A DNA stretch of 64,000 bases, taken from Escherichia coli. Its GTDB lineage: Bacteria > Pseudomonadota > Gammaproteobacteria > Enterobacterales > Enterobacteriaceae. The stretch's first letter is position 1. Each line of letters begins with the position of its first letter. Position numbers: made by a program. The DNA is taken from the NCBI RefSeq assembly GCF_030013205.1, contig NZ_CP122648.1. The stretch is one strand, 5' to 3'. Positions 15,798 to 18,542 of the stretch are shown here, in pieces.

Positions 15798-18542
15798 CTA
15801 CTGTTATAGGGATTTTAGCTCACTCTTTCAACGAGCAATTGTATATTGTTATGTAAGCAAGTGCTTACACCGGTCAGAAATTTGCTCATTATTGAGAACA
15901 TTAAATCGGATGACATATCACGCATCCTGATGGTTTAATGACAAATAAATTCAAAATATCTCATCTATTTTGCAACAGGAGCAAAAATGAAAGCCACGTC
16001 GGAAGAACTCGCCATTTTTGTTTCGGTCGTCGAAAGCGGCAGCTTTAGCCGGGCAGCGGAACAATTAGGGCAAGCAAACTCAGCGGTAAGCCGGGCGGTG
16101 AAGAAGCTGGAGATGAAACTTGGCGTTAGCCTGCTTAATCGGACCACGCGGCAACTTAGCCTGACGGAAGAAGGCGAGCGTTATTTTCGTCGCGTACAGT
16201 CAATTTTGCAGGAGATGGCAGCGGCAGAATCAGAAATTATGGAGACGCGTAATACACCGCGTGGACTGTTGCGCATCGATGCCGCAACTCCAGTAGTGCT
16301 GCACTTTCTGATGCCGTTGATTAAGCCTTTCCGTGAACGCTATCCGGAAGTCACTTTATCACTAGTCTCCTCCGAAACGATTATTAATTTGATCGAAAGA
16401 AAAGTGGATGTCGCGATACGCGCCGGTACGTTAACGGATTCCAGCTTACGTGCCAGGCCGTTATTTAACAGTTATCGAAAAATTATAGCCTCCCCCGATT
16501 ATATTTCCCGCTATGGGAAGCCAGAAACGATCGACGATTTAAAGCAACATGTTTGCCTGGGATTCACTGAACCCGCTTCCCTCAATACCTGGCCGATAGC
16601 CTGTAGCGATGGACAATTACATGAGGTGAAGTACGGTTTGTCATCCAATAGTGGGGAAACACTGAAACAGCTTTGCCTGAGTGGCAACGGGATTGCGTGT
16701 TTGTCCGACTACATGATCGACAGAGAAATCGCTCGCGGAGAATTGGTGGAGCTAATGGCAGATAAAGTGTTGCCAGTGGAAATGCCATTCAGTGCAGTCT
16801 ATTACAGCGACCGTGCGGTAAGTACGCGCATCCGGGCTTTTATCGATTTCCTTAGCGAGCATGTAAAAACAGCTCCCGGAGGAGCTGTCAGAGAGGCTTA
16901 ATCCCATTCAGGAGCCAGACCTTCCGGGCTAACCAGGCGGTCGTTGCAATCCAGTGCGGCGATCGCTTTTTTATCTTCGGCATCAAGCTGTAAATTTTGT
17001 GCCTTAAGATTACTTTCCAGGTTTTTACGTTTAGTAGAAGAAGGAATTACTGAGTAACCTTCCCCCATAGCCCACGCCAGAATCACTTGTGCCGGAGTCG
17101 CATTGTGTTTAGCTGCGATACGAGCAATAACCTCATCTTTCAGGGCCTTACCATACGCCAGCGTCATATAGGAAGTAATATGGATGCCGTGCTGTTTAGC
17201 CCAGGCAACCACTTTACGGTTTTGCAGATAAGGAGAGAGTTCAATCTGGTTAGTAGCGATGTTTTCAGCACCAACAGCAGCAATCGCTTTTTCCATCAAT
17301 GGGATCGTGAAGTTGGAAATACCGATCTCACGCGTTAGCCCTTGTTTTTTGGCTTCCAGCAGCGCCTGCATAAACTCTTCAACAGAGACTTCATCGTTTG
17401 GTGACGGCCAGTGGATTAGCGTCAGATCAACATAATCAGTACGCAATTTTTGCAGGCTCTCTTGCAGACTCGGGATCAATTTGTCTTTGCTGAGATTTTC
17501 AATCCAGATTTTAGTGGTGATGTAGAGTTCATGACGTGGCACGCCACTTTCTGCAATCGCCTGACCTACGGCAGCTTCGTTATCATAGATTTGTGCGGTA
17601 TCAATTGCGCGATAACCAAGTTCAAGCGCCGTTTTCACAGATGAAATAACAACGTCGTCTTTGAGACGGAAAATACCTAAACCAAATGCAGGGATAGCCA
17701 TAATATGCCTCTTTTAATGCTATTTTCGTTAACTGAGGTGATTATGGGCTTCAGACTGTTGCGGAAAAAGAGCGTAAAATGCAGAGGATTTTTGCGATTC
17801 TGGCAATAATAGATATACAGACGAAAAAAAACCTCGAGCGTTAACTCGAGGCTTCTTAATAAGTGGCGGAACGGACGGGACTCGAACCCGCGACCCCCTG
17901 CGTGACAGGCAGGTATTCTAACCGACTGAACTACCGCTCCACCGAATTCTTTTACAACCACCGGTTTTATGACCGGCTTACTGCTAAATTTGATGCCTGG
18001 CAGTTCCCTACTCTCGCATGGGGAGACCCCACACTACCATCGGCGCTACGGCGTTTCACTTCTGAGTTCGGCATGGGGTCAGGTGGGACCACCGCGCTAA
18101 GGCCGCCAGGCAAATTCTGTTTCATCAGACCGCTTCTGCGTTCTGATTTAATCTGTATCAGGCTGAAAATCTTTCTCTCATCCGCCAAAACATCTTCGGC
18201 GTTGTAAGGTTAAGCCTCACGGTTCATTAGTACCGGTTAGCTCAACGCATCGCTGCGCTTACACACCCGGCCTATCAACGTCGTCGTCTTCAACGTTCCT
18301 TCAGGACTCTCAAGGAGTCAGGGAGAACTCATCTCGGGGCAAGTTTCGTGCTTAGATGCTTTCAGCACTTATCTCTTCCGCATTTAGCTACCGGGCAGTG
18401 CCATTGGCATGACAACCCGAACACCAGTGATGCGTCCACTCCGGTCCTCTCGTACTAGGAGCAGCCCCCCTCAGTTCTCCAGCGCCCACGGCAGATAGGG
18501 ACCGAACTGTCTCACGACGTTCTAAACCCAGCTCGCGTACCA

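What the first reader, a model, noticed from the sequence alone, without database searches (positions are those of the whole stretch)
18100..18100. 5S rRNA differs from the recalled canonical sequence at nucleotide 13
The rrfH copy reads ...GGCCUUAGCGCGG where the canonical E. coli 5S as I recall it reads GGCCGUAGCGCGG (G13 to U). Microheterogeneity among 5S copies is known, so this is probably an operon-specific allele rather than an error.
Basis: partly seen in the sequence, partly recalled or inferred. Interest (0 to 1): 0.12.

Follow-up and report, generated by a model that had tools for sequence, protein, structure and literature searches.

The report
Common U13 allele of 5S rRNA
The single-base difference is real, but it is the commonest natural version of the E. 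coli 5S ribosomal RNA gene, sits at an unpaired, highly variable spot, and is shared by five of the eight copies in the closest genome, so it is ordinary.

Summary
Observation confirmed. The 5S rRNA gene (window 17993-18112, minus strand) reads UGCCUGGCGGCCUUAGCG..., with U at position 13, which is window base 18100. That is its only difference from K-12 rrfH, and none of K-12's eight copies has U13.

The interpretation as an operon-specific allele is not supported.
- In the closest complete genome (K_EC180: 1 indel and 2 SNPs over 18.3 kb), U13 is in rrfH, rrfC, rrfA, rrfB and rrfE. Only rrfD and rrfG keep G13.
- Across 5,426 complete E. coli genomes, U13 is the most frequent 5S allele: 18,696 of 43,429 genes, against 14,161 for G13.
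- At the rrfH locus itself, 2,624 genomes carry U13 and 2,237 carry G13.

Position 13 lies in the unpaired three-way junction (loop A). In other Enterobacterales, positions 12-13 take at least seven dinucleotides while 83 surrounding bases stay identical.

Sister strains of the same clade carry either [spacer variant + U13] or [other spacer variant + G13], uniformly at rrnH, rrnB and rrnE. That is the pattern expected from short-tract gene conversion between rrn operons, although assembly polishing could imitate it.

Verdict: already known and of low interest.

The parts
17993..18112 (-). 5S rRNA gene rrfH, 120 nt
   Evidence: Rfam RF00001, 93.2 bits. 119 of 120 bases identical to K-12 rrfH. 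Identical to the rrf annotated in K_EC180.
18100..18100 (-). 5S position 13: U here, G in K-12 rrfH/G/D/C. Unpaired nucleotide of the loop A three-way junction.
   Evidence: The Rfam structure line marks positions 12-15 as multiloop ',,'.
18174..18179 (-). Linked variant block in the 23S-5S spacer (-67 to -62 relative to the 5S start). The window has GGATGAGAGAAAG; EC556 rrnH and K-12 rrnH have GGATTGAGAGAAG. It travels with U13.
   Evidence: Alignment of rrnH with paralogous operons and sister strains.
18113..18205 (-). 23S-5S spacer. Over the ~95-100 nt compared it is identical to that of rrnB and rrnE in K_EC180.
18206..21109 (-). 23S rRNA (rrlH)
   Evidence: Rfam RF02541, 2870 bits
21293..21368 (-). 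tRNA-Ala(UGC), spacer tRNA (alaV position)
   Evidence: ARAGORN
21411..21487 (-). tRNA-Ile(GAU), spacer tRNA (ileV position)
   Evidence: ARAGORN
21556..23097 (-). 16S rRNA (rrsH)
   Evidence: Rfam RF00177, 1576 bits
17864..17940 (-). Distal tRNA-Asp(GUC) (aspU position). Together with dkgB it identifies the operon as rrnH.
   Evidence: ARAGORN; K-12 annotation; K_EC180 annotation
16898..17701 (-). dkgB, the unique gene downstream of rrnH, used as the locus anchor for the rrfH-specific allele counts

Best explanation
The U at position 13 is a common, natural allele of E. coli 5S rRNA, and I infer it to be effectively neutral. Position 13 is an unpaired nucleotide in loop A, the junction of helices I, II and V, and swapping it changes no Watson-Crick pair. 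Positions 12-13 are the variable dinucleotide of an otherwise highly conserved molecule. U13 and G13 both circulate in E. coli and usually coexist within one genome. Copies are shuffled between the seven rrn operons by short-tract, RecA-type gene conversion (concerted evolution). In this porcine ETEC/O139:H1 clade the U13 haplotype, linked to a spacer variant about 65 nt upstream, occupies rrnH, rrnB, rrnE, rrnA and rrnC. G13 survives in rrnD and rrnG, whose spacers upstream of the 5S are divergent. Shown here: the base, its position in the structure, its copy distribution, its population frequencies, and the linked-haplotype pattern. Inferred: neutrality, and gene conversion as the mechanism of spread.
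For: (1) The base and the gene are verified. (2) K-12 MG1655 has G13 in all 8 copies. Its variable positions are 3, 12, 92 and 117, matching the 4 variable 5S positions reported in PMC6312700. (3) K_EC180, the closest genome, has identical U13 5S genes at rrfH, C, A, B and E, G13 at rrfD and rrfG, and a U3/A12/G13/A117 copy at rrfF. Clade genomes hold 4-5 U13 copies. (4) Species-wide, of 43,429 5S genes: U13 18,696, G13 14,161, A12 4,705, rrfF-type 5,237, which together make 98.5%. At least 3,029 genomes must hold both U13 and G13. (5) At rrfH specifically: U13 in 2,624 genomes, G13 in 2,237. (6) Structure: position 13 is in the multiloop of the Rfam model, where the consensus is A. With the classical 5S helices imposed, the energy is -39.4 kcal/mol for all three alleles, and MFE values are -50.7, -50.9 and -50.7. 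(7) In 120 stretches from other Enterobacterales with 83 flanking bases identical, positions 12-13 are UG 43, AC 39, UU 24, CG 9, AG 5, AA 4 and GG 1. Some genomes are internally mixed, including G13/U13 in two Pantoea genomes. (8) Conversion signature: over -150 to +170 the window and EC556 rrnH differ only at the spacer block (-67 to -62) and position 13. Across the ~95-nt spacer and the 5S, the window matches K_EC180 rrnB and rrnE, and EC556 rrnH matches EC556 rrnB and rrnE. W13-16, of the same clade, has G13 at rrfH. Short-tract conversion between rrn operons is the accepted mechanism of concerted evolution (PMC6002687).
Against: Neutrality is inferred from variability and structure and was not measured. 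The uniformity of copies within each assembly could partly reflect repeat collapse or short-read polishing of rRNA operons, which I could not check without reads. That matters most for EC556/571/581, which show 0 U13 copies while sisters show 4-5. The direction of conversion at rrnH (G13 to U13 or the reverse) rests only on EC556 and K-12 sharing the G13 spacer haplotype.
Confidence: 0.9

Rival explanations
1. Operon-specific allele: U13 is a private, stable mark of the rrnH operon, as the h33 variant is for rrsH.
For: In the window only one 5S gene is visible and it differs from the K-12 reference. rrnH is known to carry a distinctive 16S allele (PMC6312700).
Against: Five of eight copies in the closest genome carry U13. 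K-12 rrfH has G13. rrfH is split between U13 (2,624 genomes) and G13 (2,237) across the species. Strains of the same clade differ at rrfH.
Confidence: 0.02
2. Sequencing or assembly error at this base in the window.
For: rRNA repeats are error-prone in assemblies. The window differs from K_EC180 by a homopolymer indel elsewhere.
Against: The exact 120-nt sequence is present in thousands of independent RefSeq genomes. It is linked to a spacer variant that also occurs at paralogous operons.
Confidence: 0.02
3. Functionally specialised 5S variant: the G13 and U13 forms are kept together in most genomes by selection for ribosome heterogeneity.
For: At least 3,029 of 5,426 genomes carry both alleles. 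G13 persists specifically at rrnD and rrnG in K_EC180. There is precedent for functional rRNA allele variation in rrsH (PMC6312700).
Against: The position is unpaired and hypervariable among related genera, taking all four bases. Genomes fixed or nearly fixed for one allele exist: K-12 has 0 U13 and an O157:H7 genome has 7 U13. Persistence of G13 at rrnD and rrnG is more simply explained by their divergent upstream spacers limiting conversion.
Confidence: 0.05
4. The multi-copy pattern is an artefact: polishing made the rrn copies of each assembly uniform, and the true genome has U13 at fewer or different operons.
For: EC556/571/581 show 0 U13 copies and sister strains 4-5, despite about 99.9% identity over 18.3 kb of this window. 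Whole blocks switch together at rrnH, B and E.
Against: Assemblies keep distinct alleles at rrnD, rrnG and rrfF, and distinct spacer variants at rrnA and rrnC, so copies are not globally collapsed. The same 4-5 copy count recurs in 14 assemblies deposited under at least three accession series.
Confidence: 0.1

Closest known systems
E. coli K-12 MG1655 rrfH (b0205), also rrfG, rrfD and rrfC: the textbook 5S rRNA sequence
   Same: Same gene, same operon position (23S, 5S, aspU, dkgB), same 120-nt length, 119 of 120 bases identical.
   Different: G13 in K-12, U13 here. K-12 has no U13 copy among its eight.
rrf genes annotated in RefSeq E. coli genomes such as O157:H7 PV15-279 and K_EC180
   Same: 100% identical over 120 nt. 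O157:H7 PV15-279 has 7 U13 copies and K_EC180 has 5.
   Different: Nothing differs: this is the same allele.
Known 5S microheterogeneity of K-12 (C12A in rrfA/B/E; U3/A117 in rrfF; C92U in rrfA)
   Same: Same kind of variation. One site is the neighbouring loop A position 12, and copies differ within one genome (PMC6312700).
   Different: Position 13 is not among K-12's four variable sites.
Concerted evolution of bacterial rrn operons by short-tract gene conversion (Liao 2000; Hashimoto et al. 2003; reviewed in PMC6002687)
   Same: Paralogues in one genome share linked variants that differ from the orthologues in a sister strain. The tract is at least ~80 nt and spans spacer and 5S.
   Different: Here it is inferred from assemblies only. 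No recombination event was observed.
G/U heterogeneity at position 13 in the original 5S RNA sequencing of strain MRE600 (Brownlee, Sanger and Barrell, 1967-68), from my recollection only
   Same: If recalled correctly, this is the same polymorphism, making it one of the first rRNA microheterogeneities described.
   Different: Not verified. Nothing was found in the searchable library, and the MRE600 accession I tried, itself recalled from memory, is not in the collection.

Membership tests
Bacterial 5S rRNA (Rfam RF00001) | Scores above the family's gathering threshold with the consensus three-helix-arm structure | tested here: met
   93.2 bits against 38, full-length model match 1-120
Bacterial 5S rRNA (Rfam RF00001) | Lies directly downstream of 23S rRNA in an rrn operon | tested here: met
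   23S at 18206-21109 and 5S at 17993-18112 on the same strand, with a 93-nt spacer
rrnH operon of E. coli | tRNA-Ile and tRNA-Ala in the 16S-23S spacer, tRNA-Asp after the 5S, dkgB downstream | tested here: met
   ARAGORN; K-12 annotation; K_EC180 annotation
   U13 at rrfH, C, A, B and E of K_EC180; 4-5 copies in clade genomes
   At rrfH, U13 in 2,624 genomes and G13 in 2,237. K-12 rrfH has G13.
Concerted evolution by gene conversion between rrn operons | Paralogues within a genome share linked variants that differ from the orthologues of a close relative | tested here: met
   The spacer block plus position 13 switch together at rrnH, rrnB and rrnE between K_EC180/window and EC556
Concerted evolution by gene conversion between rrn operons | The copies are really as assembled (no repeat collapse or polishing artefact), and a non-reciprocal transfer took place | not testable with these tools
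   Needs raw long reads or an experimental conversion assay
Neutral polymorphism | Site unpaired and free to vary among relatives | tested here: met
   Multiloop position. Equal energies for the alleles. Seven dinucleotides at positions 12-13 in other Enterobacterales.
Neutral polymorphism | No fitness or translation difference between the alleles | not testable with these tools
   Requires isogenic strains

The most novel reading that the evidence does not exclude
G13 and U13 5S rRNAs are functionally distinct, and most E. coli genomes keep both on purpose. G13 would be preferentially retained at particular operons (rrnD and rrnG here), giving two ribosome sub-populations that differ at the 5S three-way junction.
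Probability: 0.04. Interest if true: 0.45.

Novelty: already known. Interest (0 to 1): 0.05.

Why it matters
It matters very little biologically. The useful point is practical: K-12's 5S genes are not representative of E. coli at positions 12-13. K-12 has no U13 copy, although U13 is the species' commonest allele. Differences from K-12 at these positions should therefore not be flagged as anomalies. The clade comparison is also a tidy small example of concerted evolution, or of assembly homogenisation, among rrn operons.

Tried and rejected
(1) tried to count rrfH-specific alleles by joining the 30-mer allele probe to the aspU terminator segment. They gave no information. The second segment apparently produced no seed, probably because BLAST's low-complexity filter masked it: the place counts were identical. 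The test was redone with the 5' end of dkgB as anchor and then worked.

(2) My first gene boundaries (17995-18114) were two bases off, which made meaningless. They were corrected to 17993-18112.

(3) Unconstrained MFE folding does not reproduce the native 5S fold. I used it only to show equal energies, and evaluated the native helices separately.

(4) Literature searches for position-13 heterogeneity and for Brownlee/MRE600 found nothing usable. The MRE600 accession NZ_CP014197.1, which I recalled from memory, is not in the collection, so that historical claim stays a recollection.

(5) The 99.3% identity shown for K_EC180 suggested a difference in dkgB. One search showed that both query parts are present exactly, so it is a reporting quirk.

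(6) The first probe for rrnG in K_EC180 landed in a genomic island. The operon was found with a wider fetch.

(8) Sequencing error and an rrnH-private allele were considered and rejected (see the rival explanations).

Full report
**1. What is there**

Rfam finds one complete rrn operon on the minus strand of the window:
- 16S at 21556-23097
- tRNA-Ile at 21411-21487
- tRNA-Ala at 21293-21368
- 23S at 18206-21109
- 5S (RF00001, 93.2 bits against a gathering score of 38)
- a distal tRNA-Asp at 17864-17940

Downstream lie dkgB and yafC, and a second tRNA-Asp (the aspV position) sits about 8 kb further on. That is the rrnH layout of K-12.

Aligned in register with the annotated 120-nt K-12 rrfH, the 5S gene spans 17993-18112. 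Position 13 falls exactly on window base 18100 (+ strand A, RNA U). My first boundaries were two bases off and were corrected.

**2. Comparison with K-12**

I fetched all eight MG1655 5S genes and compared them with the window.
- rrfA, rrfB and rrfE have A12 and G13, and rrfA also has U92.
- rrfF has U3, A12, G13 and A117.

K-12 therefore varies at positions 3, 12, 92 and 117. This agrees with the four variable 5S positions reported by Kurylo et al. 2018 (PMC6312700). K-12 has no U13 copy at all.

**3. Which genome, and its other copies**

The window is 100% identical over 24.8 kb to a small clade of porcine ETEC/O139:H1 strains. Only 21 of 5,432 matching records reach 99% identity or more. 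Over window 1-18300 the best records, K_EC180 and ETEC1748, differ from it by one homopolymer indel and two SNPs, and the 5S is identical.

I located all seven rrn operons of K_EC180 by synteny and compared its eight 5S genes.
- rrfH, rrfC, rrfA, rrfB and rrfE are identical to the window and carry U13.
- rrfD and rrfG carry G13.
- rrfF is the usual divergent copy.

U13 is therefore the majority allele of this genome. The two G13 copies are the ones whose sequence upstream of the 5S diverges from the others, which would limit homologous exchange.

A chimeric query independently gave 4-5 U13 copies in 14 clade genomes. It combined 2 kb of lineage-specific unique DNA with a 30-mer allele probe. 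Under megablast's 28-base word the probe hits only exact matches. The arithmetic checks: 24,121 places = 18,696 + 5,425.

**4. Species-wide frequencies**

I used the same 30-mer probes against 5,426 complete E. coli genomes holding 43,429 5S genes.

| Allele | Genes | Genomes |
|---|---|---|
| U13 | 18,696 (43.0%) | 4,164 (median 5 per genome) |
| G13 | 14,161 (32.6%) | 4,291 |
| A12/G13 | 4,705 (10.8%) | 1,383 |
| rrfF-type | 5,237 (12.1%) | 5,221 (one per genome) |

Together these cover 98.5% of all 5S genes. U13 is therefore the commonest E. coli 5S allele. By counting, at least 3,029 genomes must carry both U13 and G13.

For the rrfH locus specifically, I joined the allele probe to the first 110 nt of dkgB. 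U13 is there in 2,624 genomes and G13 in 2,237. An earlier attempt with the aspU terminator as anchor gave no information, probably because of low-complexity masking. "Operon-specific" is thus refuted both within the genome and across strains.

**5. Structure**

In the Rfam alignment, positions 12-15 are multiloop (',,') with consensus CAUA, so neither G nor U matches the family consensus at position 13. With the classical E. coli 5S helices imposed, the nearest-neighbour energy is -39.4 kcal/mol for U13, G13 and A12/G13 alike. Unconstrained MFE values are -50.7, -50.9 and -50.7 kcal/mol, although that fold is not the native one. PMC1976436 lists C11, C12 and A15 under loop A.

**6. Other species**

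One scan of species-representative genomes required 83 specified bases identical to E. coli 5S positions 2-86, with positions 12-13 left free. Positions 12-13 were UG 43, AC 39, UU 24, CG 9, AG 5, AA 4 and GG 1.

Several genomes were internally mixed:
- Superficieibacter electus: AC/CG/AG
- Budvicia diplopodorum: AA/AG
- Pseudocitrobacter faecalis: AC/AG
- Pantoea sp. Mb-10: UG/UU
- Pantoea sp. WMus005: UU/UG

So these two nucleotides form a hypervariable spot in an otherwise frozen sequence, and G13/U13 mixtures occur outside E. coli too. The scan did not reach Escherichia or Salmonella, so the ancestral state is not settled.

**7. How the allele spreads**

Within the clade, EC556 is about 99.9% identical to the window over 18.3 kb but has G13 at rrfH.
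- Between -150 and +170 around the 5S, the two differ only in a linked block: a spacer indel pair at -67 to -62 and position 13.
- Across the ~95-nt spacer and the 5S, the window's rrnH is identical to K_EC180 rrnB and rrnE.
- Over the same stretch EC556's rrnH is identical to EC556's own rrnB and rrnE, and it shares the G13/spacer block with K-12 rrnH.
- W13-16, another clade member with four U13 copies, also has G13 at rrfH.

Paralogues agreeing within a genome while orthologues disagree between sister strains is the classic signature of concerted evolution by short-tract gene conversion (reviewed in PMC6002687; Hashimoto et al. 2003, cited in PMC6312700). The caveat is that polishing of repeated rRNA operons during assembly could produce the same picture. 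This applies most to the 0-versus-5 contrast between the EC556 group and its sisters, and it cannot be resolved without reads.

**8. Verdict**

It is a long-catalogued, very common allele at an unpaired and variable junction nucleotide. I recall that G/U heterogeneity at position 13 was already reported in the original MRE600 5S sequencing (Brownlee, Sanger and Barrell), but I could not verify that here.

Novelty: already known. Interest: about 0.05. The only non-trivial residual possibility is that G13 and U13 are functionally distinct and deliberately co-maintained. The hypervariability of the site argues against this, and I rate it at about 4%.

Noticed in passing
window 1-7700 (K_EC180 locus L140 1-7800): The type VI secretion cluster beside the aspV tRNA is decayed. 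tagH has an internal stop, and tssH lacks its C-terminus (window ~2887-5346) and abuts a VasL remnant (~5336-5725). In other strains the same 18.3-kb query spans about 25.3 kb and includes tssM, tssA and full VasL, so this clade has a deletion of roughly 7 kb.
   Followed up: partly
window 8979-9570: An IS200C transposase gene (about 8979-9437) sits next to the aspV-position tRNA-Asp (9641-9717). The Rfam STnc490 hit (9447-9570, 146 bits) lies directly beside it. It may belong to the IS200 element rather than being a free-standing sRNA gene; I did not test this.
   Followed up: no
EC556/EC571/EC581 (NZ_AP027440.1 and related records) compared with K_EC180 and ETEC17xx/40xx: Three Japanese isolates of the same clade have no U13 5S copy, while sisters have 4-5. 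Their rrnH, rrnB and rrnE all carry the alternative spacer + G13 haplotype. This is either unusually extensive concerted evolution between close relatives or an assembly/polishing effect.
   Followed up: partly
window 7180, 11381, 17336: These are the only differences between the window and K_EC180 over 18.3 kb: a C6 versus C5 homopolymer indel at about 7180 and two SNPs. The window therefore comes from a very close relative or a different assembly, not from that exact record.
   Followed up: yes
K_EC180 locus L016 45777-45964 (rrnG): The 23S-5S spacer of rrnG is 188 nt, against about 95 nt in the other operons, and its sequence is unrelated just upstream of the 5S. rrnD also diverges there. 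These are the two operons that keep G13.
   Followed up: partly
K_EC180 loci L012, L016: Several pseudogenes are annotated near rrn operons in this lineage: btuB (internal stop, also in EC556), kgtP (frameshift) and dgcN (internal stop). A P2-like prophage lies between pheA and raiA, next to rrnG.
   Followed up: no
window 21117-21225; 55901-56010; 56849-56935: Other Rfam hits: StyR-44 immediately upstream of the 23S in the internal spacer, CssrA, and t44. I did not examine them further.
   Followed up: no
window 17987 (7th base after the 5S 3' end): The 5S-tRNA-Asp spacer has T where K-12 rrnH and rrnC have A (CAAATTTAGCAG versus CAAATTAAGCAG). The T form is shared with rrnB and rrnD of K_EC180, another small marker that moves between operons.
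   Followed up: partly
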